From: Dethiobacter alkaliphilus
GTDB lineage: Bacteria; Bacillota; Dethiobacteria; DTU022; UBA8154
Assembly: GCA_016841605.1 (NCBI GenBank)
Contig: JAENYV010000001.1
Coordinates: forward strand, 165,553 to 229,552
Direction of reading: 5' to 3'
Length of the DNA stretch: 64,000 nucleotides
Under the pieces are notes generated by a model that saw only the letters and a program-made list of their open reading frames with translations, had not been told where the DNA came from and ran no database searches. Made by a program: the position numbers and the translations under genes. Below, piece by piece: positions 11,402 to 54,661 of this stretch (position 1 is its first letter; each line of letters begins with the position of its first letter).

Positions 11402-12493
11402 ATGTTGCTTTCTCCGGTAAATTTTAGAAATTTGAGTTTAAAAAACAGGATCGTCTGGCTGCCTATTGTCAGCTGGTTGGCAGAAGATGACGGTTTTGTT
11501 ACCGATGCAGTTATCGAACGTTACAGCCGCAGGGCAGAAGGTGGAGTAGGGATGGTTGTTATTGAAGCGACAGGAGTCCTGGACAGGAGAAGCCCGAAAC
11601 TGATAAAGATTTGTGATGATAAATATATGCCGGGTTTGGAAAAGTTGGTACAAGCCATTCACGATGCGGGAGCAAAAGTATCCGTTCAGCTGATTCACTA
11701 CGCCAAGAAATCTAAAAAAACAGGATGGAAACAAAAGGTTGAAGATTTAAGTCCGGAAGATATCCGGCAGGTCAAGAAAGAATATGTAGAAGCGGCAATC
11801 AGGGCAAAAAAAGTCGGGTTTGATGCTATTGAATTACATGTGGCTCACAGCTATACCCTTGCCTCTTTCGTTTCCCTTCTGAACAAGCGGCAAGATGAAT
11901 ATGGCCGTGATATATGGGGAAGAAGTAAAATTGTTCTGGAGATTATGGAAATGATTCGAGAAAAAGTCGGTGATGACTATGCTGTATGTGCCAGAATCAG
12001 CGGTGAAGAATTTGTAAAAGGTGGCAACACTTTGAAGCAAACCAGAGTAATCTCCAGGTTAATGGCCGGGAAAGGCCTGGACTATTTAAGCGTATCGGCC
12101 GGAGGGAAAGATGAAGATGGTGATTGGTACACAGGATATAGTTCAACGAGAAGCATGCCAACTGCCAACCTGACGGATGGATGCCATGTATACCTGGCGG
12201 AAGCTCTTCGGGAAGAAATGGCACCATATGGAGTACCGGTCATTGCTTCCGGAAAAATAAATACCCTTAAACAGGCTGAAGAAATTTTAGCCGGGGGACA
12301 GGCTGATTTGATCGGTGTGGCCAGGCCGTTGCTGGCTGATCCCGATTGGATATTAAAACTTAAAGAAAATAAGGAAGACGAACTTGTTACGTGCACATAC
12401 TGTAATACCTGCCTGGATAGAGACCGCCGCTTTGAGCCTGTCGAATGTATTGAAGCAGAGAAAAAAATCAGAAAAGAAGCCAGGATGGCATAA
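11402..12493 (+). CDS. Old-Yellow-Enzyme-type FMN oxidoreductase with C-terminal 4Fe-4S motif (enoate / 2,4-dienoyl-CoA reductase N-domain-like)
   Basis: LSLKNRIVWLPI.., GGVGMVVIEAT and GFDAIELHVAHSYTLASF (OYE TIM barrel), then C-x2-C-x2-C-x11-C (CTYCNTCLDRDRRFEPVEC). No C-terminal FAD/NAD domain. Confidence 0.75.
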   Translation: MLLSPVNFRNLSLKNRIVWLPIVSWLAEDDGFVTDAVIERYSRRAEGGVGMVVIEATGVLDRRSPKLIKICDDKYMPGLEKLVQAIHDAGAKVSVQLIHYAKKSKKTGWKQKVEDLSPEDIRQVKKEYVEAAIRAKKVGFDAIELHVAHSYTLASFVSLLNKRQDEYGRDIWGRSKIVLEIMEMIREKVGDDYAVCARISGEEFVKGGNTLKQTRVISRLMAGKGLDYLSVSAGGKDEDGDWYTGYSSTRSMPTANLTDGCHVYLAEALREEMAPYGVPVIASGKINTLKQAEEILAGGQADLIGVARPLLADPDWILKLKENKEDELVTCTYCNTCLDRDRRFEPVECIEAEKKIRKEARMA

Positions 12494-12538
12494 AGGAAGG
12501 ACTGTATTCTGTTCAGCTATGCAGAAGGAGGGAAAGAT

Positions 12539-14197: not shown

Positions 14198-14425
14198 TTT
14201 ACTACCGGTAGACTACCTCAACTAAATAATCTTTCCTTACAGGAAAACCTTGGTAACTCCAGGGTTTTCTTGTTTCAAAGACCTAATTTTGTGTTGGAAC
14301 GTTAAAAATTATATACATCCCTGCAGCTATAGAAAATATCTATTGGTTTTCTTTGTTGCCCTTTGATAGACTACTTTGAAGATTAAACGAAACATAATAT
14401 TGCTTAAAAAAAGTGAAGGGGTGAG

Positions 14426-15046
14426 GTGATGCTCATCGATATTCATGTGCATACCTGCAAACATTCTCCATGCAGCCGCATTGAACCGCAAGAGGCGGTT
14501 TTGAAGGCCAGGGAGATGGGCCTAGACGGGATATGCATAACAGACCACGATAACTGCCATTTTCGGTCCGAGGCCGAAGTGCTAAGCAGGGAAACGAACT
14601 TTTTGATTTTAGTCGGAATGGAAGTGTTGAGTTACGAAGGGGATCTGCTTATCTTTGGGCTGGACGAAGCTCCGGCACAAAAAATGCACGCCAGGGATTT
14701 AATTGCTCTGGTCAACAGGAAAAGCGGTGTCGCTATTGCTGCGCACCCTTTTCGCGACAACGGGCGAGCTTTGGGCGAGTCTATCAGGGAACTGGAAGGT
14801 TTGTCAGGGGTGGAGAGTTTTAACGGCAATACTTCATTGGCCGATAACTACCGGGCAGACGCTCTGGGGAAGTCACTGTTTTTGCCCTTATTGGGCGGGA
14901 GCGATGCTCACTCGGTTGAGCGCGTCGGGTGCTACGCTACATATTTTTCTGCAGATATTAATAGTACTGCCGCTTTTATCAGTGCTGTCAAAGGTGGACT
15001 TGTTTGCCCGGTGGCTCATGAGGTAAACGGCTTTTATAAGCTTTAA
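14426..15046 (+). CDS. PHP-domain metal-dependent phosphoesterase
   Basis: IDIHVHT..SPCS, ICITDHD, AAHPF and GGSDAHS form the PHP His/Asp pattern. The real start is probably the ATG at 14429. Confidence 0.75.
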   Translation: MMLIDIHVHTCKHSPCSRIEPQEAVLKAREMGLDGICITDHDNCHFRSEAEVLSRETNFLILVGMEVLSYEGDLLIFGLDEAPAQKMHARDLIALVNRKSGVAIAAHPFRDNGRALGESIRELEGLSGVESFNGNTSLADNYRADALGKSLFLPLLGGSDAHSVERVGCYATYFSADINSTAAFISAVKGGLVCPVAHEVNGFYKL

Positions 15047-15091
15047 TTTGTTTTATTAAACGGAAAAGCAAAACGAGGGGGAACGAAGTTA

Positions 15092-16213
15092 ATGAAAAAG
15101 GTTCTAATTTTGTTGCTGGCTGTGATGCTGGTCTTTACTTTGGCTTCCTGTTCACCAAAAGAAACAGAGACAGAGAACGGAACGGGAGCGGAAGTAGGGA
15201 CAGAAACAGGCACAGAGCCGGAGATCTATGTCGGTGAGGGCTGGTCCTCGGAGTATTACAATCCGGAAACCATGAAAGGTGTTGTTCTGAATCTTTATGG
15301 TGTAACGGATGTCGTCAGACCTATCCTTGATATTTTTGAAGAAGATACGGGTATCAAAGTGGAACACCTGACCTTGAAAAATGCGGAAATTCTGCAAAGA
15401 TTAAGCAATGAGTTTGACGTAGGGGTCTCCATTGCGGATATTTGGTTTACAGGCGGTGCGGATACTTTTATTAATGCCGCGCAGAATGGACTGCTAATTC
15501 CTTACAAATCACCGCCCGGCGCAGAACTCGACGATATTATGAAAGATACCGAAGGGTATTGGCATGGGACATCCTTAACCATTGTCAACTGGGTTGTCAA
15601 CAAGGAGCTTATTGAACAGAAAGGTCTTAAAATGCCGGAAACCTGGGAGGATCTTTTGCAGGAAGGCTTAAAGGGCGAAGTAGCCATGCCCAATCCGGCT
15701 TCTTCAGGAACCGGTTATAATACTATCAGCGCGATTATCGAAGTAAAAGGTGAAGAAGCGGGCTGGGCTTACCTGGAGAAACTCATTGAGCAAGTTTCCT
15801 TTTTTAGCCCCAGGGGCAGCGACCCGGCCCAGCATGTTGTCAACGGCGAGGCAATTGTCGGTATTAATCCCACAGACGGCGGCAGGGAGTTGGAGATTAA
15901 CAACCCCCATATAGCCCTTGTTTACCCCGAAGATGGAACCGGATGGTGGCCACAGCCGGTGGCTATCGTTAATGGCACCAAAAATGAAGAAGCAGCCAAA
16001 GTTTTTGTTGACTGGCTTTTATCGAAGAGGGGTATGGAGACGATAGCGAGAGAAAGGTATGCAGCTGTTGCCAGACAAGATGTGGAAAGGCCGGAAGGAA
16101 TTGTTGATATCAGCACGATAAACCTTTTTGCTACTGATTTTCAACTTAATGCCGAAAGGCGAGATGAGATTTTAGCAGAATGGGAAAAACGGGTCAGCGC
16201 TGCCGCAAGGTAG
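15092..16213 (+). CDS. ABC transporter substrate-binding lipoprotein (Fe3+/2-aminoethylphosphonate/thiamine FbpA-type family)
   Basis: Signal peptide plus lipobox (LVFTLASCS) and an E/T-rich linker. The SBP_bac_1/6-like body contains NPASSGTGYN. Confidence 0.7.
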   Translation: MKKVLILLLAVMLVFTLASCSPKETETENGTGAEVGTETGTEPEIYVGEGWSSEYYNPETMKGVVLNLYGVTDVVRPILDIFEEDTGIKVEHLTLKNAEILQRLSNEFDVGVSIADIWFTGGADTFINAAQNGLLIPYKSPPGAELDDIMKDTEGYWHGTSLTIVNWVVNKELIEQKGLKMPETWEDLLQEGLKGEVAMPNPASSGTGYNTISAIIEVKGEEAGWAYLEKLIEQVSFFSPRGSDPAQHVVNGEAIVGINPTDGGRELEINNPHIALVYPEDGTGWWPQPVAIVNGTKNEEAAKVFVDWLLSKRGMETIARERYAAVARQDVERPEGIVDISTINLFATDFQLNAERRDEILAEWEKRVSAAAR

Positions 16214-16235
16214 AGAGAGCTCAAATAAAATTTAT

Positions 16236-16280
16236 GGCAAAGAGAAAGCCGGGGCTTCGCTTTCCGGCTTTCTCTTTGCC
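16236..16280 (+). promoter_or_regulatory. Strong intra-operon stem-loop between SBP and permease genes
   Basis: GGCAAAGAGAAAGCCGG-(11 nt)-CCGGCTTTCTCTTTGCC is a perfect 17-bp stem with no T-tract after it. It could be an mRNA stabiliser or partial terminator giving SBP excess. Confidence 0.55.
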
Positions 16281-16330
16281 GTTAACATGGCAAGTATTCT
16301 CTTTGCAACTATGCTCTTCGAGGTGTACCG

Positions 16331-18076
16331 ATGTCTTTACAAGCCAGTAAACCGGTTATAGTCTTATACATTTTAATATTAATTTCTGTTGTCTATTTTG
16401 TTTTGGTGCCCGTTGTCAGTGTGGTTTACTACGGGATTAGCTCCGGCGAGCCGGGGGTTGTTTTCCAGGGAACAGGCCGGGCCCTTTTGTATTTAAAGAA
16501 TAGTTTGCAGGTTTCAATGCCTGTTACCTTGATTGCCACTGCTTTTGGATTATTGGCCGCGCTTACCCTGTGGCGTGTAAAGTTTTGGGGCAGGTCCTTG
16601 ATGAGGCTGATGGTTTTATTTCCTTTGATCAATCCTCCTTTTGTGGGAAGTATTGCCTTTATTATGCTTTTTGGGAAAAGGGGTCTTATCAGCCATAATC
16701 TACTCGGGTTGACGGTCAGCCCCTTTGGCTATTATGGTATTGTCGTCATGCAGTGTATCGGGCTTTCAACGCTGGCTTACCTGATTATCTCCAGTGCTAT
16801 CCAGGAAATAAATATTGACTATGAAGAAGCGGCACGCAATCTTGGTGCTTCGGAAGGGCGCATCTTCTTTTCCGTAACTTTGCCGTTGATGATTCCGGAA
16901 ATAACGGTTGCTGCCATGTTGGTTTTTCTTTCCTCCATGTCGGATTTTGGGACGCCCCTCATTATTGGGGGAAATTATCAAACCCTTGCTTCAGATTTAT
17001 ATTTACAGATAACGGGCTTGTACAATATGCGCACAGCATCGCTTTCCGGCATCTTCCTTTTAATACCCTGCCTCATTGCCTTTTTCATACAAAAGTACTT
17101 TTCCGGTCGCCAAGCATACTATAGTCAGTCTGTTGCCTCTGAAAACATTGAATATACGAGCATACCTGCAGCAGTAAAAGGTATTTTAATTTCTTTGACA
17201 GGTCTCTTTATTTTTTTTGTCATCATCAAATACGGCTTTATTGCTTTGGGAGCCTTTACCGAGCACTGGGGTTATGACTTTTCTCTTACGCTCCGGCACT
17301 TTTATAAGTTGCTTGGCAGGGAATTTGCTCCTTTTATCAACAGTGTCAAGCTGGCGTTGGGTGTGGCTGTGGTTTCTTCCTTATTGGGGGTTGTCATCGC
17401 TTATCTGTTAAAAACCAGGAAGTTGTTCTGTGTCCGACAGCTGGACTTCCTGGCTACTGTCCCGGCGGCAGTACCGGGGATTCTTTTTGGTATCGGCTAT
17501 CTGGTTACTTTTAAATATCCACTGTTCGGTGTGGGCAGGTTTATTTTTCCGGAGATGTCTCCTGTTATTTTGTTGGGAACAGGTATAATTATTTACATAA
17601 TTTGTGTGTTCCGATATTTATATGTAGGCCTGAAAACCGGTTATGCTCTCCTGGAACACCTTGATCCAAACCTGGAACCTGCTGCCAATAATCTCGGAGC
17701 CGGCGATCTGAAAACATTTGTCCATATTATCTTTCCACAGCTCAAACCTGCTTTTGCCGCCGCGTTTTTGCGCAACTTTACTTCCACCATGACGACCCTG
17801 GGCGCCATAATTTTTTTATTGTTGCCCCGGAATAAAGTTGCAACGCAACAAATTCTGCAAGTTGCCGGCAGTTCGGAAATCGGTTTTGCCGCAACATTGG
17901 CCTTGATGCTCTCTTTGCTCTCCCTTTTGTTGCTCATTGTCTTTCAGATAATTGTTAACTACCAGGGGCTTATCGGTTGGTTTAAAAGCAAATGGGGCCG
18001 GGTAAGGCGTGTCAGGAATGTTAAAATGCTTACTGGGAGCAACTTTTCAGGAGAAAAAAACCGGGAGACAACTTGA
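16331..18076 (+). CDS. ABC transporter permease, duplicated (two MetI-like domains; FbpB/PhnU2-type)
   Basis: A 581-aa polytopic protein. Two EAA-like loops are present (DYEEAARNLGASEGRIFFSVTLP and EPAANNLGAGDLKTFVHIIFP). Confidence 0.8.
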   Translation: MSLQASKPVIVLYILILISVVYFVLVPVVSVVYYGISSGEPGVVFQGTGRALLYLKNSLQVSMPVTLIATAFGLLAALTLWRVKFWGRSLMRLMVLFPLINPPFVGSIAFIMLFGKRGLISHNLLGLTVSPFGYYGIVVMQCIGLSTLAYLIISSAIQEINIDYEEAARNLGASEGRIFFSVTLPLMIPEITVAAMLVFLSSMSDFGTPLIIGGNYQTLASDLYLQITGLYNMRTASLSGIFLLIPCLIAFFIQKYFSGRQAYYSQSVASENIEYTSIPAAVKGILISLTGLFIFFVIIKYGFIALGAFTEHWGYDFSLTLRHFYKLLGREFAPFINSVKLALGVAVVSSLLGVVIAYLLKTRKLFCVRQLDFLATVPAAVPGILFGIGYLVTFKYPLFGVGRFIFPEMSPVILLGTGIIIYIICVFRYLYVGLKTGYALLEHLDPNLEPAANNLGAGDLKTFVHIIFPQLKPAFAAAFLRNFTSTMTTLGAIIFLLLPRNKVATQQILQVAGSSEIGFAATLALMLSLLSLLLLIVFQIIVNYQGLIGWFKSKWGRVRRVRNVKMLTGSNFSGEKNRETT

Positions 18077-18115
18077 CGTATCAACTTGACGTATTGCCTG
18101 CGAAGGAGTTTTTTT

Positions 18116-19174
18116 ATGAAAATTGAATTGCGAGACATTACACAAAAATATGGGGACAAAATAGCCGTTAACAATGTAAGCTTTTCTATTGATGATGGAG
18201 AGCTGGTCGCTCTCCTAGGTCCCTCCGGTTGCGGCAAGACGACATTGCTGAGAACCATTGCCGGCATGATACCTCTATTTAAAGGTGCAATTTACCTGAA
18301 TGGGGTAAATATCAGTGTCTGGCCTGCGCAGAGACGCAATACGGCTATGGTTTTTCAAAATTATGCCCTGTTTCCCCATATGACTGTGGAAGAAAATATT
18401 GCTTATGGTCTGAGAGTGAAAAAAATAAAGAAAAACGTTCAAAGACAAAAGGTTGAGGAAATACTGAGCAAGGTCCGGCTGGAGGGATACAATAAACGTA
18501 AAATATATGAACTCAGCGGCGGAGAGCAACAAAGAGTGGCTCTGGCCAGAGCCCTGGTTATTGAGCCCGGTGTTTTGCTCTTTGATGAACCTTTAAGCAA
18601 TCTGGACGAAAAGCTGCGGGTCTCCATGCGCCGGGAGATTAGAAAGATTCAACAGGAATATGGGATAACCAGCATTTATGTAACTCATGACCAGGAAGAG
18701 GCCATGTCTATCGCAGACCGAATTGTCATTATGAAAGACGGTCTGCTTCAGCAAATGGGCTCTCCCCGTGAAATTTATTTTCATCCGGCCAACACGTTTG
18801 TGGCGGATTTTATGGGTGTTGCCAATATTATTGAACCGGGAGAAATAAGAATAAACCGCGATCATCAACTTGTTTTTAAAATCTTCGGAAATACTTATGC
18901 CATACCGTCCAACAACTATCAGGAAAAAGGAAATCTAAAAGGAAAGATTATGTTCAGACCGGAAGACGTTGAGCTGAAAGAGAACGGAGAATGCAGGGGC
19001 GTTGTCAGATGGTACGAGAACCTCGGGGCGACCGGCAGAGTTGCCATTGATTGCCAAGGCATCTCTCTTATCGCTGAAATATTCAATCGCTATGGAAATA
19101 TCCGGGAATATTGTTTTGGTGAAGAGGTGCGATTTACTATTATTCCGGACGCCTTTCATTTGCTTGCAGAATAA
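18116..19174 (+). CDS. ABC transporter ATP-binding protein (FbpC/PotA-type with C-terminal TOBE-like domain)
   Basis: An ATG 4 nt after AAGGAG is preferred over the listed TTG at 18086. Walker A GPSGCGKTT, signature LSGGEQQRVALARA and Walker B LLFDEPLSNLD. Confidence 0.85.
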   Translation: MKIELRDITQKYGDKIAVNNVSFSIDDGELVALLGPSGCGKTTLLRTIAGMIPLFKGAIYLNGVNISVWPAQRRNTAMVFQNYALFPHMTVEENIAYGLRVKKIKKNVQRQKVEEILSKVRLEGYNKRKIYELSGGEQQRVALARALVIEPGVLLFDEPLSNLDEKLRVSMRREIRKIQQEYGITSIYVTHDQEEAMSIADRIVIMKDGLLQQMGSPREIYFHPANTFVADFMGVANIIEPGEIRINRDHQLVFKIFGNTYAIPSNNYQEKGNLKGKIMFRPEDVELKENGECRGVVRWYENLGATGRVAIDCQGISLIAEIFNRYGNIREYCFGEEVRFTIIPDAFHLLAE

Positions 19175-19197
19175 TACTGCCGTTTGCCTGTATCAAA

Positions 19198-19695
19198 TTA
19201 TGAACGCTTATTATCTTGCAAAGTTTCCCCCGGTTCGGGGAAAAGGGACGGATCTCCGAGTTTTGATGTCAACAAAGCGGCAGTAATACCATACAGCCCG
19301 TGATTTATAAAAGCTGATAAATTTGTGGAAGCATTAAGAGGAAATAAGCCCTTGATGCCGAACATGCGGCCTACTGCCCCGTATAAAGAAACCCAGGCAA
19401 GATTACCGAAGCCCAAACCTTTGAGGGTAGCATGGTCTCTGCCCGTATAACGTAATATGTAAACCATGGGTACCCCCATCATTGCTCCGATGGCAAAGTC
19501 TGCCAGCGCGCCGACAAATAAACCGACCGGTTTTTTGCGTTCTTTTTGGGCCATAAAAAGCCCTGCGGCAATTTCCGGATAAGTTACATTGGAAATTTTT
19601 AAGATTTTCCTGTTGAATTCATTTCCCACAAATTTTACAAGATTTGCTACTATACCCACGGTAGCGCCAAGAACCAGCGGATCTTTTATTTTCAT
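19198..19695 (-). CDS. Small polytopic membrane protein, unknown function (last gene of the lanM-lanA transcription direction; immunity candidate)
   Basis: A 165-aa protein with about 4 hydrophobic segments and no recognisable motif. It is co-oriented with and 125 nt downstream of the precursor gene. Confidence 0.45.
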   Translation of the reverse strand: MKIKDPLVLGATVGIVANLVKFVGNEFNRKILKISNVTYPEIAAGLFMAQKERKKPVGLFVGALADFAIGAMMGVPMVYILRYTGRDHATLKGLGFGNLAWVSLYGAVGRMFGIKGLFPLNASTNLSAFINHGLYGITAALLTSKLGDPSLFPEPGETLQDNKRS

Positions 19696-19820
19696 TATTT
19701 ATCCGCCTTTCATGTTATGGTACAGTTTATTGTGCCCGGATTTAGCGTTTTTAGTCTTGGTAAATGATAGCTATTTCGCTTGACGCTTTGATGCAGTTAA
19801 ATAAAATAGTAATTGTTCTT

Positions 19821-20189
19821 CTATTCTCTTTCTATTACACAGTTATAATTATTTCCAAATTTAGACTTATAAATAGCTGACGTAACAGCTGCTATTCCGC
19901 AGAGGACACCCAAAGTAACCATGGAATATACTACCCATGTGCTTCCCCCCGCCACATTTTCTAATTCCTCATCACTTAATTCTCCTTCATTTTGGGCTTG
20001 CCGGACTGCTTCCGTGATGTACGTATAGAAGTCTTCTTCTGTAAACCGGAGGCCCTGTTTTTCTCCTATTTTGATTATTTCTTTGATCACTTCTTCGTTC
20101 ATTTCGCTGTGCAAATTTTTTAGTTGCTCTTGCAGACTTTCATCCCCGGCCACTTTTTCTAATAATAACTTCACATTCTCTACTGCCAT
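19821..20189 (-). CDS. lanA: Nif11-type leader lanthipeptide precursor (LanA)
   Basis: The leader MAVENVKLLLEKVAGDESLQEQLKNL...FTEEDF...ELSDEELENVAGG matches the Nif11/N11P leader architecture and ends in a double-Gly cleavage motif. The 40-aa core STWVVYSMVTLGVLCGIAAVTSAIYKSKFGNNYNCVIERE has 7 Ser/Thr and 2 Cys. AAGGAG RBS. It lies 87 nt downstream of lanM. Confidence 0.8.
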   Translation of the reverse strand: MAVENVKLLLEKVAGDESLQEQLKNLHSEMNEEVIKEIIKIGEKQGLRFTEEDFYTYITEAVRQAQNEGELSDEELENVAGGSTWVVYSMVTLGVLCGIAAVTSAIYKSKFGNNYNCVIERE

Positions 20190-20276
20190 ACTGTTATCAT
20201 CTCCTTGTAAACTGTAAATAGTGTAATTTCTAAAGGTATATACGAAAAAACGTCTATTCTATTACAGGGTCTATTT

Positions 20277-23200
20277 TTACGTTAGAATACTTGGTATACC
20301 CTCTCTGTTGAAAAGGCGCAACAGTTCATATCCTATTCCGGCCAGGCCCTGAAATAAGGAGGGATTAAACAAAGCCCCCGCCTCTTTATCCTCCCCGTGG
20401 AAGACATAATGTCCCAATTTCCTCTTACGCTGCAGCATCCAGCTTAGCCTCTTTCCGGCTTCCGTCAATAGTTCCGGTTGATTCAGCCTGTGGCCGGCTT
20501 CGATCAGCAGTTCAATCCGGCCTCCATTGCCGCAACAGATATGGTCGCTGTAATACGGAGGATAATTTAAGGTAAAGGTAAGGGCATTAGCAATATCCTC
20601 GTGCACTTTTTGTGTATGATGAACGGAAAGAGTGCCCAATCTTGCCAAGCCGATTCCCGGTGCCCCGCTGCACCACCCTGCCATGAAAGCTTTTTCTCCT
20701 TTCTTTAAATTCGGGTTTTTTCGTAAATCCGGCCAGTTGTTTTTCTCCCGGTCATACAAGGTATCTTCGTGATGGAGCGCCTCTTCGGCTGCATGATAAT
20801 ACCTGTCCTCCCCCGTGATTTGATAGAGCCTTAATAAAGAATTGGCAATTCCTGCGGAGCCGTGCCCCATTCCTGTCAAGGGCGCAGTTCCCATGCCCGT
20901 ATCCCAGACCTGCTGACCCGAAGCAGCTCTGACCCGCTGTTTTAAAAGGTGTTCCCCGCATGTTTCGGATAAAGATAATACCTTTGGTGATTTTTCCTGA
21001 GTGTATAGTTGCGTCAGGACAGAAAGGAGGCCTGCACATCCTCCCAATATATCCAGATGAGCGTCTTCCCTAATTTGTCCCTGTTCCAACCTGCTAATTA
21101 TCGTAGAGATATCTTTTTGAAAAGAAGAATCTCCTAAAAAGTTGCCAATCAGAATGAGAGACTTTAATATTCCGGCAAGGCCGTTTCCCAGACCCAGGGG
21201 CAAGCGATGGAGAGGAAGGGGGTTAGAGGGATCATGCAATTGGTTTCTGAATTTTTCTAATGCTTTGAGCGTATCATGTTTAATTTGTTTTTTTCCGGTA
21301 CAGTGATACAGGGCTGCCATAAAAACGGCGATCCCCAAAATTCCATCATATAGCAGCGGACCGATAAGGTCTAAAGCCATCTTCTGCGTTTGGATATCAT
21401 GTTGCCTGACCACCCAGGTAAAATCTCCATCCGCCCCTTCAATCCTCCGCTCCATAATATGGCGATAAATGTTTAGGGCTTCTTCCAACAGAGTTTCGTT
21501 ATCTATGGGGAGAATATCTTCTACTTTTGTGGATAGTATACGATCTCCACCTGCTGCCTCTTCCCCATGGGAGGTGACTTCATGCATAGATAAGGATGAA
21601 AGGATTAAGTTCATTTGCAGCTTTTTATCTTGGGGGTTCATTCCTTTAAGCAATTTCTGCGCTCTGTCTGTGGCGCTTTGCCAAAAATATTGACCGTATA
21701 AATAACCCCTATGATCCTGTACTGATAGGTCGCCGGCATCACCGAAGAAAACCGGAATATCCCTTTGTTCCAGTGCATCTCTTTCAGAAAGATATATCTT
21801 CCAGAGTTCTTTTAATTTGGCTGCAGGGGCAGATAATAGATAAGCACTGCCCATCCTTTCCAGTTCAAAGGAATAGTCAAGCCCGGTCCGGAGGTAAGCC
21901 GGGTGTGTCGTATGATGCAATAGATCCGCATAGATCTGTGTGGATCTGATCAGAAAGCGAAACCGGCAGTCCTGAAACTTGCGGAAAGGGGAAGCTTCGA
22001 GGAGTGTGTCTCTATGTTGAAGCAGGAAATCATAGATCGTCGCAAAACCCTGGAGAATCTCTTCCCGATAGCGGCTGCTTTGCTGCTTTTCTCCTTGATA
22101 CAGGGGAAGATTTTTCATTCTGTCATTATTAGCGGTCAATGCTCCGATATCTTGCGTATTCCCATTTCCGTCCATCCGCCAAACAGGTAAAAGCCCTATC
22201 CGGAGGACGGAATCACCAAGCATATTCAGGGCCTTCTGTATACCGTCCAAACCCTGTTCAGCTTCAGTTAGCTGAAAAGGCCTTACCCGGTGAAGCAAAA
22301 GCGTTTCCAGGTCGATCAAAACAGGATGGGAACCCCAGGCAATGAGGTTTTCACAGTGAAAATCATTTCCTCCCAGGGCATAAACCAACCCCAGCAGAAC
22401 ACCTCCCCGGTAATAAAATTCTCTCACTTCTTTTTCTTCCTCAACAGGTTTTTGCTCGATGTACTCCACCCAGCCGCGGCTTCCTCGATCCAACAGCAAG
22501 GGAGTCCTGAAATAACATGGGAAGCCTTTTTCTCCGAGCCACTCCAGCAGTTCGTCCCAGATCCGATCAATCTGCAGGCTTCTGGGTTTAAAGACTATTT
22601 TTACCCCCGAAGAGAACGTCAAAGCCTTTACACATCTTCCTTGTTGATGGAAATCGGAGAGGTTGTCTTCAACGCGGTTAATTTGTCCTAAAGGCCGGCT
22701 ATTATTAAATATTTTTTCCAGTTTTACCCTGTCTTCTTCCAAAAATTTGACCAATTCCCGGATCGCCTCGGCCCAATTGTTCACTGCTGTTACCAGCAGT
22801 CTGGCGAGAACGGGATACTCCATAAAATGCTCCTTCCATTCTCCCCCCAGCATCTCATTTGTAAAAGCGTGCAGATGCTTTCTATATTCCTTTTCCGTAG
22901 GTTTCATTTCCAGAAAGCAGTAGAGGGGGTTTTTCTTCAGAAAAGACGTGCTGAATTTGTTTAAAAGGGTATTAAAACAGAGTGAACTCAAGGTTTTAAG
23001 CAGCCCGTCATGGAGATGATGCAGGGCGTTGCAGGTGAAGGCGGCTGCCCTGCTTCCCAATCCTGCTGCGAGCTTCTGTGCTGCATAGGCAATGAAAGGG
23101 GAAAAACAGGGAGAAAAGGATAGGGGAGAGAGGGTATATGTTTTATCTTTTTCTTCTTCTTCTTCTTCTTCTTCAAAGCATTGCACAGCCGGTATTTCCG

Positions 23201-23546
23201 ATTCTGACGCCGGAAAAAAGTGAAATATTGTCTCAATTTCTCTCACCCATGCAGGAAGGGGATATTTCGTATTCCATATAACAGCGCCTGTCAGTGTTTC
23301 TGCTTGTTCCAGGGTAATATCCTCTGCTGACAATCTTTTTGCAAAAGCCGCCTTGCCCCCGTTTCCCCCGGCTTTTTGCATCCACCTGTCAATTTGCCGG
23401 ACAGATCCTGCGGCAGATCCTTTGGAAATTGTCATTCCCTGAAGCCGTTCTTTGAGAAAAGCAGCCCTGGCTGCCAGTTCATTCTGTTGTTCTGTTGTTA
23501 AGAACATAATATCAACCAGCCTCTCTCCGGTCCCCTTAAGAGCCAT
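20277..23546 (-). CDS. lanM: Class II lanthipeptide synthetase LanM (dehydratase + LanC-like cyclase)
   Basis: 1089 aa. The N-terminal DUF4135-like region contains VKIVFKPRSLQIDRIWDELLEWL. The C-terminal LanC-like region has GHGSAGIA, the zinc-ligand motifs AGWCSGAPGIGLA and HICCGNGG, and GLAGIGYELL. Confidence 0.9.
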   Translation of the reverse strand: MALKGTGERLVDIMFLTTEQQNELAARAAFLKERLQGMTISKGSAAGSVRQIDRWMQKAGGNGGKAAFAKRLSAEDITLEQAETLTGAVIWNTKYPLPAWVREIETIFHFFPASESEIPAVQCFEEEEEEEEKDKTYTLSPLSFSPCFSPFIAYAAQKLAAGLGSRAAAFTCNALHHLHDGLLKTLSSLCFNTLLNKFSTSFLKKNPLYCFLEMKPTEKEYRKHLHAFTNEMLGGEWKEHFMEYPVLARLLVTAVNNWAEAIRELVKFLEEDRVKLEKIFNNSRPLGQINRVEDNLSDFHQQGRCVKALTFSSGVKIVFKPRSLQIDRIWDELLEWLGEKGFPCYFRTPLLLDRGSRGWVEYIEQKPVEEEKEVREFYYRGGVLLGLVYALGGNDFHCENLIAWGSHPVLIDLETLLLHRVRPFQLTEAEQGLDGIQKALNMLGDSVLRIGLLPVWRMDGNGNTQDIGALTANNDRMKNLPLYQGEKQQSSRYREEILQGFATIYDFLLQHRDTLLEASPFRKFQDCRFRFLIRSTQIYADLLHHTTHPAYLRTGLDYSFELERMGSAYLLSAPAAKLKELWKIYLSERDALEQRDIPVFFGDAGDLSVQDHRGYLYGQYFWQSATDRAQKLLKGMNPQDKKLQMNLILSSLSMHEVTSHGEEAAGGDRILSTKVEDILPIDNETLLEEALNIYRHIMERRIEGADGDFTWVVRQHDIQTQKMALDLIGPLLYDGILGIAVFMAALYHCTGKKQIKHDTLKALEKFRNQLHDPSNPLPLHRLPLGLGNGLAGILKSLILIGNFLGDSSFQKDISTIISRLEQGQIREDAHLDILGGCAGLLSVLTQLYTQEKSPKVLSLSETCGEHLLKQRVRAASGQQVWDTGMGTAPLTGMGHGSAGIANSLLRLYQITGEDRYYHAAEEALHHEDTLYDREKNNWPDLRKNPNLKKGEKAFMAGWCSGAPGIGLARLGTLSVHHTQKVHEDIANALTFTLNYPPYYSDHICCGNGGRIELLIEAGHRLNQPELLTEAGKRLSWMLQRKRKLGHYVFHGEDKEAGALFNPSLFQGLAGIGYELLRLFNREGIPSILT
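23151..23174. repeat. (TTC)8 / (GAA)8 microsatellite inside lanM (encodes Glu8)
   Basis: Eight perfect TTC units on the + strand. They translate as FEEEEEEEEKDK in LanM. Confidence 0.95.
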
Positions 23547-23705
23547 GGGAATGAAGAGTCATGAAGACGGTTCCATTGTCTTCCCTTCGGACCTCTTCTT
23601 CGCTTCGGTGACGCTCGAACCGTCCCCTTGGCTTAAGTCAACCGGTTTAACTAAATATATACGGTGCCGTTATTTACTGCAAACCGACAAGTTGGCAAAA
23701 ACATT

Positions 23706-23965: not shown

Positions 23966-24781
23966 ATGCTAAATAACGGCAGAATATTGGGGAGACAAAC
24001 CTCAGGAGTGCAACTTGACATGGAAGTGGAGAAAGCATTATGGAAAGTATATGCCACCGTCTATGACGGTATCCTGTTGCGTTTCCTACCATACCTTACA
24101 TTGCTTGGCCGGGTGAAGGAAGCCCTGGGTGTGAAGGATAGGCGGCGAGTGCTTGATGCCGGCTGCGGGACGGGTAATTTAATACAATCTATGATTAAAT
24201 CGTCTGTAAGTATTTCCATAGTCGGTATTGATTTTGACAGAGCCATGCTGGAGCGAGCCAGGGCTAAAATTGGAGTAAACGGCCGAGTTACCCTTCGGAA
24301 AGGAAGTTTGGATCACCCTTTACCCTTTGCGAACGAGGAGTTTGACGGTATTGCCTGTGTCAATGTTCTCTATGCCTTAGCCGACCCCTCCCACTTTATG
24401 AAGGAATGCCGGAGGGTTTTAAAGGCAAAAGGGAAAATGGTCCTGGTCACGCCACCGGAACAACCGAAGATGGGACCTGTTTTTTGGGAACATCTTCAGG
24501 CGCTGGGGCAAAAGCAAAAGTATCCCCTCTTTCGGTTTTTTACCCTCTGCTGTCTGATGCTCCAATTGAGCCCATCCTTAGTGCCTTTCTTGTTCATCAA
24601 CCGTATCATCCAGGGTCAAAGTTCGTTTACCTTTTTCGGCGAAAAGGAGCTTATCTCACTGGTAACCCGATGCGGTTTTTTAATTCAAAAGCTGGAAAAA
24701 GCTTACGGAGGACAGGCCTGGTTTCTTGTTTGCATAAAACCGGCAAATGCTGAGGACGGCATTGCAGGGAAAGGAGCATAA
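23966..24781 (+). CDS. Class I SAM-dependent methyltransferase with hydrophobic C-terminal segment
   Basis: Motif I VLDAGCGTGNL and the post-I acidic residue (VGIDFD). Motif II-like FDGIACVNVLYAL. A late hydrophobic stretch reads FRFFTLCCLMLQLSPSLVPFLFI. Confidence 0.8.
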   Translation: MLNNGRILGRQTSGVQLDMEVEKALWKVYATVYDGILLRFLPYLTLLGRVKEALGVKDRRRVLDAGCGTGNLIQSMIKSSVSISIVGIDFDRAMLERARAKIGVNGRVTLRKGSLDHPLPFANEEFDGIACVNVLYALADPSHFMKECRRVLKAKGKMVLVTPPEQPKMGPVFWEHLQALGQKQKYPLFRFFTLCCLMLQLSPSLVPFLFINRIIQGQSSFTFFGEKELISLVTRCGFLIQKLEKAYGGQAWFLVCIKPANAEDGIAGKGA

Positions 24782-24782
24782 G

Positions 24783-26006
24783 ATGAAAAGCGTGGTCATA
24801 ACGGGGCTTGGGGTAGTAGCACCAAACGGCCTGGGCAAAGAAGCCTACTGGCATGCTCTGGCAAACGGTAAATCGGGGATACGATCCATTAGTAAATTTG
24901 ACCCTTCTCCCTTTCCCTGCCGCATTGCCGGAGAAATCCCGGCAGAATGGTTCGCGGAAAAGGGACTTGCCTCGGGGGGAGAAGAATATTCCTGGAGCAC
25001 AATTTATGCTCTCCAGGCAGCCAGGCTGGCCCTCAAGGATGCCATGCTCAGCTCTGAAGCGATAAAAGACTGCTCCACCGGTGTTTACATGGGGATCAGC
25101 AGCACCGACATGGGAGTTGTACAGGATGAATATGCGGTTTTTCAAAAAAATAAAACAACTTCTGCCGGAGCAATCGCGGCGTCTTTTCCCCATGCACCGG
25201 CAAGTCAACTGGCGAAGGAAATTAACTGTGCGGGAAATGTGTTTACCGTTTCCACAGGGTGTTCTTCCGGGCTGAACAGCCTTATTCTGGCAGCCGAGAG
25301 TATTATACACGGCGAAGCGGAAGTTGTGCTGGCCGGAGGGGTGGATGCCCCCCTAACACCCCTGCTCCTGGCAGGTTTTTGTGCCACAGGTTTACTCCCC
25401 ACCAGCTTTAATGATACTCCGGAAACAGCCAGCCGACCTTTTGATGCAAAGCGACAGGGGGGAGTACTCTCGGAGGGTGCCGGGGTCCTGGTCTTGGAAG
25501 AGGAGGAGGGTGCCCGGCGGCGTGGCGCCCCCCTTTATGCCAGGATAAGCGGGTGGGGAGCGACCAACACCTTTTCTCCAACCGGTTTGCGCGCTTCCTC
25601 CAATGAGTGTATTATTCAGGCTTTGCATAGCGCGGGCCTTAAACCGGAACAAATTGATTATATCAGTGCCCATTCCCCCGGGGACCCTGTCATGGACCGG
25701 GTGGAAACCCGGGTTATTAAGGAAGTGTGGGGTAAATATGCCTACAATATTCCGGTAAGTTCCGTCAAATCCATGATCGGCAACCCCCTGGCGGCATCAG
25801 GACCGTTGCAGACGATCGCAACGGTCCTGGCACTGCAAAACCAGTTTATTCCGCCGACCGTGAATTACCGTTATCCCGATCACCGCTGCGACCTCGATTA
25901 TGTCCCGAATACGGGGCGGGTTGCCAGGGTTGCCAGGGCCTTAATCAATGTACAGGGGTTTGGCGGTGGGATTACAGCTTTGGTTATCAGCAAACCTTCA
26001 ATATAA
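24783..26006 (+). CDS. Stand-alone beta-ketoacyl synthase (FabF/KAS-II fold) with atypical Cys-His-Asn triad
   Basis: The ATG after AAGGAGCATAAG is preferred over the listed 24747. Sequence runs MKSVVITGLGVVAPNG.. with active-site Cys in FTVSTGCSSGLNS and first His in ISAHSPGD. The position of the second His (KSMxGH in FabF) reads KSMIGNPLAASG (codon AAC 25782-25784). Confidence 0.8.
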   Translation: MKSVVITGLGVVAPNGLGKEAYWHALANGKSGIRSISKFDPSPFPCRIAGEIPAEWFAEKGLASGGEEYSWSTIYALQAARLALKDAMLSSEAIKDCSTGVYMGISSTDMGVVQDEYAVFQKNKTTSAGAIAASFPHAPASQLAKEINCAGNVFTVSTGCSSGLNSLILAAESIIHGEAEVVLAGGVDAPLTPLLLAGFCATGLLPTSFNDTPETASRPFDAKRQGGVLSEGAGVLVLEEEEGARRRGAPLYARISGWGATNTFSPTGLRASSNECIIQALHSAGLKPEQIDYISAHSPGDPVMDRVETRVIKEVWGKYAYNIPVSSVKSMIGNPLAASGPLQTIATVLALQNQFIPPTVNYRYPDHRCDLDYVPNTGRVARVARALINVQGFGGGITALVISKPSI

Positions 26007-26028
26007 TTTTGGGAGCGGGTTATATCTT

Positions 26029-28500
26029 TTGACAAATCCAAACATCTGGCTATTATCTATTATAGCTTTGGCGAACTTAACGCTGGGTTTGCTGGTTCTC
26101 CTAAAAAACCGCCGGGGGACGTTGAACCGCCTTTTATTCAGGTTGAGTATCAGCGCCGCTCTCTGGAGCCTGACGGTTTTGTTCATCGTGTCACATCATG
26201 ATTATCCCATAGTCCTGTTTTGGGTCCGGGCATCCCATGCGGCAGCTATTATTATCCCCTGGCATATCCTTCTTATAGCTTTTGCCGTAGCCGGAATTAA
26301 TCCCCGGCAGCAAAGATGGGCCGGGTTTGTCAGTCTATGCTGTTTTCTCCTCGTTTTCCTCTCCTTTACTCCGGCTATTATCCGCGGCCTGGATTTACCT
26401 TTGGAAAACAAAGATATAGTATTGGGATTTCTTTACCCTTTTTATTCGCTTTTTTTCCTGGGCGTAATACTGGCTGCTCTGGGGAAGTTATTCCGGCAGC
26501 TTCGCTCTGCCAGGGGACTGTTGCGTTTGCAGCTGCGTTACCTTTTCTGGGGAATTGCCATATCACTGGTGCTCGGCAGCTTATCCAATATGTTGTTGCC
26601 TTTAATGGGGATTACAGCAGTAGACCTGCGACCCTTCGGTCCCACTTTCAGCATCATCATGATTGGAGCTATCAGCTATGCTATTATTAAATACCGGCTG
26701 ATGGACATCCGCCTTGTTGTCCGTAACGGCCTGGCCATCGTCATGACTGCCCTTATTTTTAGCGTAGCTTTTGGGCTGGTTTTTTCTTTGCTCCAGTGGG
26801 TGGAACTGCTTGCGACCACAAACTTTGTCCTGGTGGTCGTCGTATTTATTGTTGCCTTTTTCTTTGGACCTCTAAGGATTAAAGTGCAGAAGATCGTTGA
26901 TAAATACTTCTTCCGGGGAGCCTATGACTACCATGCTTCTTTGTTAAAAATCGGCAAAGATATGGTTTCTTTGCTCAGACTGGAGAAGCTTATTACTGTT
27001 ATTTCCCAAAACTTGTTTGAAAAAATGATGCTGGAAAACTGTTCTTTTTTTAGACAGAGTAAAGAAGGGGAGTTTGTTTTATCTGCCTTTTATTGTTCCA
27101 ATGAAGGAAATGTCTTTTCCCAGGAAGCGGTTATTTCCCGGGAAAACCCCCTTGTACAGTTTTTAAATGAAAAGGCGGAACTCTTTTTTATTACGGATAT
27201 CCCTGACATTGCGCCGCCGGAAGACAGAGAATCCCTATCCCGGGCCATGCAGGATTTGCGTGGTGAAGTTGCTATTCCCATCATCCTGGATAATAAATTG
27301 GAAGGTATCTTTCTGCTTGGTCCCAAGCTTTCCGGTGAACCGTATTCCATGAAGGACGGGAATATCCTGACAGCCCTGACCGCGCAGCTAACTGTAGCAT
27401 GGCGAAATGCTCAGCTCTATCAGGAGGTTCTGGCTGTTAAACAGCACCTGGAAAATGTTTTGGAAAATATGGGTAATGCTTTAATCGCTGTTAATTGTGA
27501 GGGTCTGGTAACACTGTTTAACAGTGCTGCAGAGCATTTTACCGGCTTCAAGGCGGAAAATATTTTAGGAAGAAAAGCAGAGGACATTTTACCCGGCGGC
27601 CTCAGCAAGCTTTTTATGCAGGCCCTTGCGGAACAACAGGATCTAAAAGAAGTGGAGCAGGTTTTTTCCGATAACGAAAGGGAAATGCACTTTTCCTGCA
27701 GCATTACGCTGGTTGGGTCTGCTGAATCCCGGGAAAAAGGGGCAATTATGGTACTTAGCGATGTAACTCGAATTAAAGAGCTGGAAAAAGAAAAAGCTCA
27801 GGCACTCAGGCTGGCTTCCCTGGGTGAAGTTGCTGCGGGCATGGCTCACGAAATTAAAAACCCCCTGGTTTCCATTAAAACTTTTGCCGAGTTATTACCC
27901 GAGAAATACAATGACCATGAGTTTCGTCATACTTTTTCTCACATTGTCATTCAAGAGATCGAACGGATCAATACGCTTATTTTACGGCTGCTGGATTTAA
28001 CGGCAGATCCGTCTCTCATCTTTCAAAAAACAAAGCTCCAAGACCTCATGGATGAAGTTCTTTTTCTCTTGTCTCCATACCTGGAGACGTTTAAGATCTC
28101 CCTGATGAAGGAATATTATTCCAGGATCCCTCCTGTAAATGTTGATCGCAGCCATATTAAGCAGGCTCTCTTCAACATTTGCCTAAACGGCGTACAGGCC
28201 ATGGGGGAAGGCGGAAATTTAAATATTCGGCTTATGCCCGTTTGGCAGGAAAACCTTAATCAGACCGGGCCGGACGATAAAGAGGAAGTAAAGATCATCA
28301 TCAAGGATACAGGGCCGGGTATTCCCGGAGAGATAGCACAGAGGATTTTTGATCCCTTCTTTACCACCAAGGCCGATGGTATGGGGATGGGTCTTGCCCT
28401 CAGTCATAAAATTATCTCAGCTCACGGAGGAGCCATACAGTTCAGCAGTAATGGTGCAGGAACCATGTTTGAAATATCCATTCCCGTATTGTCGGAATGA
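26029..28500 (+). CDS. Sensor histidine kinase: N-terminal 7TM-type membrane domain - GAF-like - PAS - HisKA - HATPase_c
   Basis: The start is uncertain. TTG 26029 after GGGAG is preferred over the listed 25948, which would overlap the KS gene by 59 nt. About 8 hydrophobic helices. H-box [16 protein letters not shown]-box [12 protein letters not shown]1 IKDTGPGIP and G2 GMGMGLALS. Confidence 0.85.
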
Positions 28501-28504
28501 AAGG

Positions 28505-54655: not shown

Positions 54656-54661
54656 AGCAAG

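What the first reader, a model, noticed from the sequence alone, without database searches (positions are those of the whole stretch)
19198..23546. Class II lanthipeptide locus with a Nif11-type leader and a transmembrane-helix-like core, lacking a visible LanT/C39 exporter
SEEN:
- LanM (1089 aa, zinc-ligand motifs intact) is followed by one precursor. Its 82-aa leader has the Nif11 architecture and ends ..ELSDEELENVAGG.
- The 40-aa core (STWVVYSMVTLGVLCGIAAVTSAIYKSKFGNNYNCVIERE) contains a ~22-residue uninterrupted hydrophobic stretch, 7 Ser/Thr and only 2 Cys.
- No ABC exporter with a C39 peptidase domain, LanP, LanFEG or LanKR is present within the window. Only a 165-aa membrane protein follows.

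KNOWN: Nif11-leader LanM substrates are best known from cyanobacterial prochlorosins. GG-leaders are normally removed by a C39-domain transporter.

INFERENCE: This is an atypical, possibly membrane-inserting lanthipeptide in a Firmicute, with its processing/export component encoded elsewhere. Alternatively the product could be a retained, modified membrane peptide rather than a secreted lantibiotic.
Basis: partly seen in the sequence, partly recalled or inferred. Interest (0 to 1): 0.65.

Follow-up and report, generated by a model that had tools for sequence, protein, structure and literature searches.

The report
Minimal lanthipeptide gene pair, exporter absent
This is a real but stripped-down two-gene locus for a ring-stapled, greasy membrane-type peptide; the peptide belongs to a widespread, so far uncharacterised precursor family, and the dedicated export/cleavage pump that close relatives carry next door is missing here.

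Summary
On the minus strand lie an intact class II lanthipeptide synthetase (LanM, 20277-23546; likely true start 23507), one Nif11-leader precursor (19821-20189) and a 165-aa membrane ORF. TIGR03897 and TIGR03798 both score above their cut-offs. No C39, HlyD, LanP, LanFEG or LanKR gene occurs anywhere in the 64 kb.

Three refinements:
- The LanM has the three-Cys (CCG) zinc site of the ProcM clade.
- The "transmembrane-like" core is not a one-off. It fits a conserved scaffold (W-hhh-S-x7-C ... C, about 38 aa, two Cys) found in 46 of the 150 best 50%-identity cluster representatives, and beside the closest LanMs in anaerobic Firmicutes.
- 10 of 11 well-flanked relatives encode the Nif11/NHLP export module (TIGR03794/96/97) within 10 kb, often with a GNAT and fatty-acid-synthase genes. 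The window has none of these.

The 165-aa gene is a resident neighbour: its homologues elsewhere never sit by LanM. In the only sister contig, lanM homology stops 423 nt before the stop codon.

Most likely this is a minimal lanM-lanA cassette that depends on an exporter encoded elsewhere. Its product would be a two-ring, helix-stapled, membrane-active peptide. A decaying orphan locus is the main rival. It is a new member of a known kind, of modest interest.

The parts
20277..23546 (-). lanM: class II lanthipeptide synthetase of the ProcM-like three-Cys (CCG) type. The maximal ORF is 1089 aa; the probable true start is the ATG at 23507 (1076 aa).
   Evidence: TIGR03897 scores 780.6 bits, with PF13575 and PF05147. 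The alignment to LicM2 (6st5) shows the KPRS, DFHxEN and IDLE kinase-like motifs and the GHG / WCSG / CCG cyclase motifs. All clade-invariant residues are present. Homologues align from residue 14, and a Shine-Dalgarno sequence precedes the ATG at 23507.
19944..20189 (-). lanA leader peptide: 82 aa, Nif11 type, ending ELSDEELENVAGG.
   Evidence: TIGR03798 scores 47.7 bits (cut-off 32.3) over residues 1-82, and PF07862 scores 37.4 bits. Against sister contig L001 there are 0 nonsynonymous and 7 synonymous differences.
19821..19943 (-). lanA core peptide (40 aa plus stop): STWVVYSMVTLGVLCGIAAVTSAIYKSKFGNNYNCVIERE. Ser7 and Cys15 are the family-invariant pair, Cys35 is the C-terminal ring acceptor, and a GxxxG motif lies at core residues 12-16.
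   Evidence: The best 19-residue Kyte-Doolittle mean is 1.89 and 25 consecutive residues are uncharged. Alignment A2 of 17 cores from 11 loci has invariant Ser7 and Cys15. The same scaffold occurs in 46 of 150 representatives.
20201..20206 (-). Shine-Dalgarno sequence AAGGAG, 11 nt upstream of the lanA ATG.
   Evidence: Read directly from the sequence.
23654..23683 (-). Candidate sigma-70-type promoter upstream of lanM (TTTGCA, 18-nt spacer, TATATT).
   Evidence: Consensus scan only, 9 of 12 matches. This is weak evidence.
19198..19695 (-). 165-aa multi-pass membrane ORF. It is co-oriented, with no terminator between it and lanA. It is probably a resident gene and not a lanthipeptide component.
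   Evidence: It has no Pfam or NCBIfam hit. Relatives match DUF6789 only below threshold. Homologues in Thermincola sp. and other Firmicute contigs have no LanM or Nif11 gene nearby. No terminator was found between it and lanA.

Best explanation
The locus is a minimal lanM-lanA cassette of the ProcM-like (three-Cys zinc site) branch of class II lanthipeptide synthetases. It sits in an anaerobic Firmicute.

Shown:
- The enzyme is intact and the leader is a bona fide Nif11 leader with a GG cleavage site.
- The core belongs to a conserved family of hydrophobic two-Cys cores of about 38 aa. A Ser eight residues before the first Cys is invariant in that family.

Inferred mechanism:
- LanM binds the Nif11 leader, phosphorylates and eliminates Ser/Thr in the core, and closes two thioether rings.
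- One ring would join Dha7 to Cys15. The i, i+8 spacing is roughly two helical turns, so this ring would act as a staple inside the hydrophobic helix.
- The second ring would run from a C-terminal Ser/Thr (Ser27, or Thr21/Ser22) to Cys35.
- The leader is then removed at GG and the peptide exported by a TIGR03796-type C39 peptidase ABC transporter, working with its TIGR03794 and TIGR03797 partners and encoded elsewhere in the genome. Close relatives encode this module beside lanM.
- The mature peptide is a stapled helix of transmembrane length with a GxxxG motif. It would act by inserting into target membranes, in the manner of cytolysin subunits or class IIb bacteriocins.
For: Identity of the parts:
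- LanM and the Nif11 leader both score above curated cut-offs.
- The catalytic and zinc motifs are present, and the zinc site is C-C-G.

Function is retained:
- The 3.2-kb ORF is uninterrupted and carries every clade-invariant residue.
- lanA has a strong Shine-Dalgarno sequence.
- Against the sister contig, the leader shows 0 nonsynonymous and 7 synonymous changes, while the core shows 7 nonsynonymous and 3 synonymous. This is the usual RiPP pattern.

Family scaffold:
- Ser7 and Cys15 are invariant across 17 cores from 11 loci.
- 46 of the 150 best representatives share the scaffold; 39 of those 46 have two Cys, and their median best 19-residue Kyte-Doolittle mean is 1.76.

Export route:
- 10 of 11 well-flanked Firmicute-clade relatives carry a C39 ABC gene within 10 kb, in most of them together with HlyD, ABC2 and PBP6 genes.
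- In Desulfotruncus arcticus these genes score as TIGR03794, TIGR03796 and TIGR03797, all above cut-off.
- Haft 2010 (PMC2887384) reports that Nif11 precursors and LanM need not be clustered with each other or with the transporter.
- LahT150 work shows that such C39 domains are tolerant of diverse substrates (PMC6363468).

Membrane activity:
- Hydrophobicity is at transmembrane level and exceeds that of recalled known lantibiotics.
- The precursor gives weak sub-threshold similarity to class IIb/IIc bacteriocin models.
- A ProcM-clade lanthipeptide that disrupts membranes is documented (nostolysamide, PMC13060382).
Against: - No exporter, protease or immunity gene lies within 20 kb on one side or 40 kb on the other, although close relatives nearly always have them adjacent.
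- In the only sister contig, lanM homology ends 423 nt before the stop codon and is replaced by unrelated sequence containing stop codons. The locus therefore seems dispensable.
- Ring topology, dehydration count, export and bioactivity are all inferred. ProcM-type enzymes let the substrate dictate its rings, so the Ser7-Cys15 assignment rests on conservation alone.
- The AlphaFold model that shows a helix across core residues 2-29 has low confidence (pLDDT 46.9).
Confidence: 0.58

Rival explanations
1. The locus is an orphan remnant. A larger ancestral cluster (exporter module, possibly with GNAT and fatty-acid-synthase genes, plus LanM and precursors) was reduced to lanM-lanA. The pair is no longer able to yield an exported product and is on its way to loss.
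For: - Close relatives carry PBP6-HlyD-C39ABC-ABC2 next to lanM, and often GNAT, DUF7005 and KS/KR/ACP/FabA genes as well. The window has none of these.
- The sister contig keeps lanA but only the last ~141 codons of lanM.
- There is only one precursor, and no immunity gene.
Against: - lanM is an uninterrupted ORF of more than 1070 codons with all invariant residues.
- The leader is under clear purifying selection, with 0 nonsynonymous changes over about 198 nonsynonymous sites against 7 in the core.
- The apparent truncation in L001 lies 103 nt from a contig end, so it could be an assembly or strain-mixture artefact.
Confidence: 0.27
2. The peptide is retained rather than exported. LanM modifies the core, but the product (with or without its leader) inserts into the producer's own membrane and acts there, for example as a modified membrane anchor or regulator.
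For: - No exporter or protease is present in the window.
- The core is of transmembrane length and hydrophobicity.
- lanA is followed without a terminator by a membrane-protein gene.
Against: - The leader ends in the canonical GG export/cleavage motif.
- Every homologous scaffold with known context sits beside a C39 export system.
- The charge distribution argues against a tail-anchored topology with the leader in the cytoplasm: the N-flank is strongly acidic and the C-flank carries Lys-x-Lys. This is an inference.
- The 165-aa neighbour is unlinked to LanM in other genomes.
Confidence: 0.08
3. The 122-aa ORF is not the cognate substrate. LanM acts on precursors encoded elsewhere, and the adjacent gene is an unmodified class II-like bacteriocin or a Nif11-domain protein.
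For: - Nif11 leaders also precede Cys-free, transmembrane-like cores in clusters that have no LanM (L002; L066).
- ProcM-type enzymes commonly serve remote precursors (PMC2887384).
Against: - The same scaffold, with its invariant Ser and Cys, lies directly beside the closest LanM homologues in many loci.
- Both Cys are conserved between the window and the sister contig despite 6 substitutions in the core.
- lanA lies 87 nt downstream of lanM on the same strand.
Confidence: 0.05

Closest known systems
Prochlorosin system (ProcM with ProcA Nif11-leader precursors; marine cyanobacteria)
   Same: - It is a class II LanM with the three-Cys (CCG) zinc site.
- It has a long Nif11-type leader ending in GG.
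- Its transporter is not necessarily linked to the synthetase or the precursor.
   Different: - Here there is a single precursor, not dozens of hypervariable ones.
- The core belongs to a conserved scaffold.
- The host is an anaerobic Firmicute.
- The best LanM hits listed from cyanobacteria are about 29-33% identical; ProcM itself was not compared.
Nostolysamides / selidamides (NpuM-NpuA-NpuN; PMC13060382, PMC8784127)
   Same: - The LanM is of the ProcM clade and has one Nif11-leader substrate.
- The product is membrane-disrupting.
- Relatives of the window LanM also carry a GNAT next to lanM, and their cores often begin with Lys.
   Different: - The window has no GNAT and no Lys1 (its core starts with Ser-Thr).
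- The core has two Cys, not four, and is far more hydrophobic.
- No lipidation is expected.
lah cluster of Lachnospiraceae bacterium C6A11 (LahT; PMC6363468)
   Same: - The host is a Firmicute.
- The precursors carry Nif11-type double-Gly leaders that are processed by a C39 ABC transporter.
   Different: - lah has nine precursors and its own LahT transporter in the cluster.
- The window has one precursor and no transporter.
Haft 2010 Nif11/NHLP export system (TIGR03794, TIGR03796, TIGR03797; PMC2887384)
   Same: This is the export module found next to the closest LanM homologues, and it is the presumed processing route here.
   Different: It is absent from the 64-kb window.
Enterococcal cytolysin subunits (CylLL, CylLS; class II lanthipeptides) and class IIb GxxxG bacteriocins
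   Same: - They are hydrophobic, helical, membrane-active peptides with few rings, or none in the case of class IIb.
- They have a GG-type leader cut by a C39 transporter.
- CylLL is the nearest known lantibiotic in hydrophobicity (Kyte-Doolittle 1.65, against 1.89 here; comparator sequences recalled from memory).
   Different: - There is no sequence homology of the cores.
- CylM is a CHG-type LanM.
- Cytolysin has short leaders, two subunits, and the CylA, CylB and CylI genes.
- Bacteriocin HMM hits to the window precursor are below threshold.

Membership tests
Class II lanthipeptide synthetase (LanM, TIGR03897) | N-terminal DUF4135 dehydratase domain fused to a C-terminal LanC-like cyclase domain, scoring above the family cut-off | tested here: met
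   TIGR03897 scores 780.6 bits against a cut-off of 304. PF13575 has E = 1.1e-101 and PF05147 has E = 9.9e-60.
Class II lanthipeptide synthetase (LanM, TIGR03897) | Kinase-like catalytic motifs and zinc-binding cyclase residues present | tested here: met
   KPRS, DFHxEN, IDLE, GHG, WCSG and CCG all align to LicM2 (6st5). They are invariant in clade alignment A1.
Class II lanthipeptide synthetase (LanM, TIGR03897) | Dehydration and thioether cyclisation of the cognate LanA | not testable with these tools
   This needs co-expression and mass spectrometry.
ProcM clade of LanM | Three-Cys zinc ligand set (C-C-G instead of C-H-G) | tested here: met
   HICCGNGG aligns with HSLCHGLIGN of LicM2. C959, C1004 and C1005 are invariant. 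The criterion is as stated in PMC13060382.
ProcM clade of LanM | One enzyme serving many precursors with hypervariable cores | tested here: not met
   Only one Nif11 precursor occurs in the 64 kb, and its core belongs to a conserved scaffold. The rest of the genome was not available.
Nif11-leader RiPP precursor (TIGR03798) | Leader scores above the curated cut-off and ends in a Gly-Gly cleavage motif | tested here: met
   It scores 47.7 bits against a cut-off of 32.3 over residues 1-82, ending ENVAGG. PF07862 scores 37.4 bits against 23.8.
Nif11-leader RiPP precursor (TIGR03798) | Co-occurrence with the TIGR03794/03796/03797 export system | tested here: inconclusive
   The system is absent from the window in all six frames. 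It is present next to 10 of 11 related LanM loci. The rest of the genome could not be searched.
Selidamide / nostolysamide-type lipolanthipeptides | GNAT acyltransferase in the cluster and an acylatable Lys or Orn (Lys1) in the core | tested here: not met
   The window has no GNAT homologue, and the core starts with Ser-Thr. Relatives L013, L022-L025, L028 and L044 do have a GNAT.
Class IIb/IIc double-glycine bacteriocins (TIGR03949, PF10439) | Score above the family cut-off | tested here: not met
   TIGR03949 scores 16.6 bits against 21.5, and PF10439 scores 13.9 bits against 27.1. The resemblance is limited to the GG junction and a GxxxG-type hydrophobic helix.

The most novel reading that the evidence does not exclude
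The W-hhh-S-x7-C...C cores may define an uncharacterised, widely distributed family of lanthionine-stapled peptides of transmembrane-helix length. Some members would be lipidated by cluster-encoded GNAT and fatty-acid-synthase genes. The exporter-less window version would then be a variant that acts in or on the producer's own membrane, rather than as a secreted antibiotic.
Probability: 0.1. Interest if true: 0.65.

Novelty: new member of a known kind. Interest (0 to 1): 0.3.

Why it matters
The window locus itself is an ordinary, if unusually bare, ProcM-type lanthipeptide pair. What is worth keeping is the family it points to. That family is a conserved hydrophobic, two-Cys core scaffold of helix length with an invariant Ser-x7-Cys pair. 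It is common in anaerobic Firmicutes and is often embedded in clusters with a GNAT and dedicated fatty-acid-synthase genes. I found no experimentally characterised member in the literature searched.

The two-gene window version would be a convenient minimal system for determining the ring pattern of that scaffold: LanM plus one LanA, with leader removal by LahT150 in vitro. It would also let one test whether an i, i+8 lanthionine can staple a membrane-spanning helix.

Tried and rejected
- **165-aa membrane protein as immunity, export or protease component: rejected.** It has no family hit, and its relatives match DUF6789 only below threshold. Five homologue contexts at 59-71% identity contain no LanM or Nif11 gene.
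- **Divergent methyltransferase and FabF-like KS (23966-26006) as tailoring genes left over from the fatty-acid-synthase module of relatives: not supported.**
  - The KS is only 35% identical to the KS of L013.
  - Both genes overlap head-to-tail with a histidine-kinase / response-regulator operon on the other strand.
  - No ACP, KR, FabA or GNAT gene is present.
- **The OYE-type flavin oxidoreductase at 11402-12493 as a LanJ-like reductase: set aside.** It lies in an acyl-CoA metabolism operon.
- **Mobile-element signatures around lanMA: none.** There are no flanking repeats, no plasmid match, and GC content matches the neighbouring sequence.
- **Other searches that returned nothing useful:**
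  - Rfam on the whole window gave no match.
  - The first genome scan, using the single LanM sequence, found nothing. The alignment-based scan was needed.
  - Exact look-ups to name the source organism failed.
- **Single-sequence AlphaFold model of LanA: too low in confidence (pLDDT 46.9) to count as evidence.**
- **Literature searches for this core scaffold: only general Nif11, ProcM and selidamide work.**


Full report
**1. What is in the sequence**

Three co-oriented ORFs lie on the minus strand between plus-strand operons:
- lanM, 20277-23546
- lanA, 19821-20189, 87 nt downstream of lanM
- a 165-aa ORF, 19198-19695, 125 nt further downstream

LanM scores 780.6 bits on TIGR03897 (cut-off 304) and carries PF13575 and PF05147. 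Aligned to the solved LicM2 structure (6st5), it has the KPRS, DFHxEN and IDLE motifs of the kinase-like dehydratase. It also has the GHG and WCSG motifs of the cyclase. Where LicM2 has C-H-G, the window enzyme has C-C-G (HICCGNGG). That is the three-Cys zinc site that defines the ProcM clade (criterion as stated in PMC13060382). C959, C1004 and C1005 are invariant in an alignment with the 13 nearest homologues.

Homologues align only from residue 14. The ATG at 23507 is preceded by GGAGAGAGG, while the ATG at 23546 has no ribosome-binding site. The protein is therefore probably 1076 aa, not 1089.

TIGR03798 scores 47.7 bits against a cut-off of 32.3 over residues 1-82, and PF07862 scores 37.4 bits against 23.8. 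It has a strong AAGGAG ribosome-binding site.

The 40-aa core has 25 consecutive uncharged residues. Its best 19-residue Kyte-Doolittle mean is 1.89, and it carries a GxxxG motif at core residues 12-16.

**2. Absence of export, processing and immunity genes**

Pfam scans of essentially every ORF of 110 aa or more were run. A six-frame phmmer search of the whole window was also run, using C39-ABC, HlyD, second-ABC, PBP6, GNAT, DUF7005 and FAS reference proteins taken from related loci. The only hits were the ATPase subunits of binding-protein-dependent importers.

No C39 or S8 protease, LanFEG or LanKR was found. No second Nif11 precursor was found either.

**3. The 165-aa neighbour is not part of the system**

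- It has no family assignment, and its relatives match DUF6789 only below threshold.
- Its homologues at 59-71% identity were looked up in five different contig sets, including Thermincola sp. None lies near a LanM or a Nif11 gene.
- The linkage to lanA exists only in the window and in one 95%-identical metagenome contig (L001).
- No terminator separates it from lanA. It may be co-transcribed, but there is no comparative support for a role.

**4. Relatives of the enzyme and what they carry**

The nearest LanMs are only 45-46% identical. They come from:
- Pelotomaculum sp. DTU098
- a Desulfotomaculaceae MAG
- Desulfotruncus arcticus DSM 17038
- a Paenibacillaceae MAG

More distant relatives (33-36%) come from Oscillospiraceae, Anaerovoracaceae and Eubacteriales.

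Eleven loci of this Firmicute clade have about 10 kb of flank on at least one side. Ten of them encode a C39 ABC transporter within that distance. It usually forms part of a PBP6-HlyD-C39ABC-ABC2 block directly upstream of lanM.

In D. arcticus these genes score as follows, all above cut-off:

| Model | Score (bits) |
|---|---|
| TIGR03794 | 452 |
| TIGR03796 | 1172 |
| TIGR03797 | 1008 |

This is the three-gene Nif11/NHLP export system defined by Haft et al. (PMC2887384).

Many relatives (L013, L022-L024, L028, L044) also carry a GNAT, a DUF7005 protein and KS/KR/ACP/FabA genes. Their cores often start with Lys. This matches the selidamide/nostolysamide logic of Lys1 acylation (PMC8784127, PMC13060382).

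The window has none of these genes within 20.3 kb on one side and 40.4 kb on the other.

**5. The core is a member of a conserved family**

The Nif11 precursors next to the related LanMs have hydrophobic cores that align with the window core. In 17 cores from 11 loci, the only invariant core positions are Ser7 and Cys15 (window numbering; i, i+8). There is usually also a Trp four residues before the Ser, a Ser/Thr at -5 and a Gly at -3 relative to the Cys, and a second Cys near the C-terminus.

An exhaustive phmmer search of 1.84 billion cluster representatives gave 396 hits at E <= 1e-3. Among the best 150, 46 carry this scaffold:
- The median core length is 38 aa.
- 39 of the 46 have two Cys.
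- The median best 19-residue Kyte-Doolittle mean is 1.76.

The closest is P0126, with the core GVNWFALSIITIGIACAAGVASSVTYKAMHGEEYVCEIQK. The transmembrane-helix-like core is therefore a family trait, not an oddity of this locus.

Nif11 leaders also precede Cys-free, transmembrane-like cores in clusters without LanM (L002; L066). Greasy cores behind this type of leader are common.

**6. Is the pair functional?**

Evidence for function:
- The lanM ORF is uninterrupted and has all invariant residues.
- Between the window and L001 the flanking genes are 94-97% identical at the nucleotide level.
- The leader has 7 synonymous and 0 nonsynonymous differences, while the core has 3 synonymous and 7 nonsynonymous. 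A constrained leader with a freer core is the classical RiPP signature.
- Both Cys are retained.

Evidence against function:
- No exporter is present in the window.
- In L001, homology to lanM begins only at window position 20700. Just the last ~141 codons are kept. They are preceded by 103 nt of unrelated sequence with in-frame stops, running to the contig end.
- This may be a genuine disruption in the sister strain or an assembly break. I could not tell which.

**7. Most likely mechanism**

I commit to the following, at about 0.58 confidence.
1. LanM dehydrates Ser/Thr in the core and closes two rings.
2. The conserved ring is most simply Dha7-Cys15, a staple spanning two helical turns within the hydrophobic segment.
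3. The second ring joins a C-terminal Ser/Thr to Cys35.
4. A TIGR03796-type transporter encoded elsewhere cleaves after GG and exports the peptide.
5. The peptide acts on membranes.

The enzyme and leader identities and the scaffold conservation are shown. The ring pattern, trans-export and activity are inferred.

The rivals are:
- an orphan remnant of a larger cluster (about 0.27)
- a retained membrane peptide (about 0.08)
- a non-cognate neighbour (about 0.05)

**8. Comparison with what is known**

The system works like the ProcM/prochlorosin and NpuM/nostolysamide systems, and it belongs to the same LanM clade by the zinc-ligand criterion. It differs in several ways:
- It has one precursor, and that precursor has a conserved core rather than a hypervariable one.
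- It lacks the GNAT and Lys1 of the selidamides.
- It lacks the clustered exporter of its own closest relatives.

Nif11-leader lanthipeptide clusters in Firmicutes are already published (PMC6363468, PMC2887384). In physical character the core resembles cytolysin subunits and GxxxG class IIb bacteriocins, but it has no significant sequence relationship to them.

**9. Verdict**

The finding is real and correctly read at the level of parts. It is ordinary in kind: a new, minimal member of the ProcM-type Nif11 lanthipeptide systems. The mildly interesting residue is the uncharacterised conserved core scaffold and the exporter-less arrangement. Interest is 0.30.

Noticed in passing
window 23966-31568 (+): An operon with overlapping genes lies divergent from lanM. 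It encodes a SAM methyltransferase, a FabF-like ketosynthase, a 7TM (HisKA_7TM)-PAS histidine kinase, a GAF-PAS histidine kinase and a response regulator with an HD-GYP-type HD domain. The ketosynthase scores 335.7 bits, below the fabF cut-off of 493.75. Its second catalytic His appears to be replaced by Asn (GNPLAASG aligned to GHSLGAAS). A lone KS plus methyltransferase co-transcribed with signalling proteins is unusual.
   Followed up: partly
L013 5217-13198; L022, L023, L024, L028, L044 (about 1000-21000 in each): Relatives of the window LanM in anaerobic Firmicutes sit in larger clusters. These combine PBP6-HlyD-C39ABC-ABC2, several Nif11 precursors (cores often starting with Lys), LanM, a GNAT, a DUF7005 protein and KS/KR/ACP/FabA genes. 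They are candidate lipidated lanthipeptides with a dedicated fatty-acid synthase.
   Followed up: partly
L001 1-535 (sister contig Ga0366840_1005128; corresponds to window 20277-20800): In the 95%-identical sister contig, homology to lanM starts only at window 20700. The preceding 103 nt, up to the contig end, are unrelated and contain stop codons. There is also a 6-nt insertion (ALAFAFTL against ALTFTL). This is either a possible disruption of lanM in that strain or an assembly break.
   Followed up: partly
L002 8231-13331 (also L003-L006): Six precursors carry Cys-free, Gly/Ala/Val-rich, transmembrane-like cores; four of them have duplicated Nif11 leader domains and two have single ones. They lie in a cluster with a C39 ABC exporter, DUF7005, two radical-SAM enzymes (one B12-binding) and a YcaO protein. 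This is a different RiPP class that uses the same type of leader.
   Followed up: no
L066 656-7901: Thirteen tandem Nif11-type precursors on one 9-kb metagenome contig. All have core peptides of transmembrane-helix type, and nearly all of these are Cys-free.
   Followed up: no
window ~23140-23180 (-), LanM residues ~123-136: There is a poly-glutamate run (QCFEEEEEEEEKDK) in the N-terminal region of LanM. It was not examined in the homologue alignment.
   Followed up: no
window 111-6246 (+): A tellurite or stress-resistance-like gene set is present: StiP cysteine protease with a PELOTA domain, AIM24, a YceG_bac protein (815 aa) and TelA.
   Followed up: no
window 44465-57122 (+): A group of large surface proteins lies beside ABC_cobalt, MotA/ExbB and DUF2149 genes. 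One is a 1700-aa SLH-anchored protein with four Shr-like heme-binding HID domains. Several carry Fn3_assoc / CHB_HEX_C_1 domains and weak Oxidored_molyb domains. This may be a metal or heme uptake locus.
   Followed up: no
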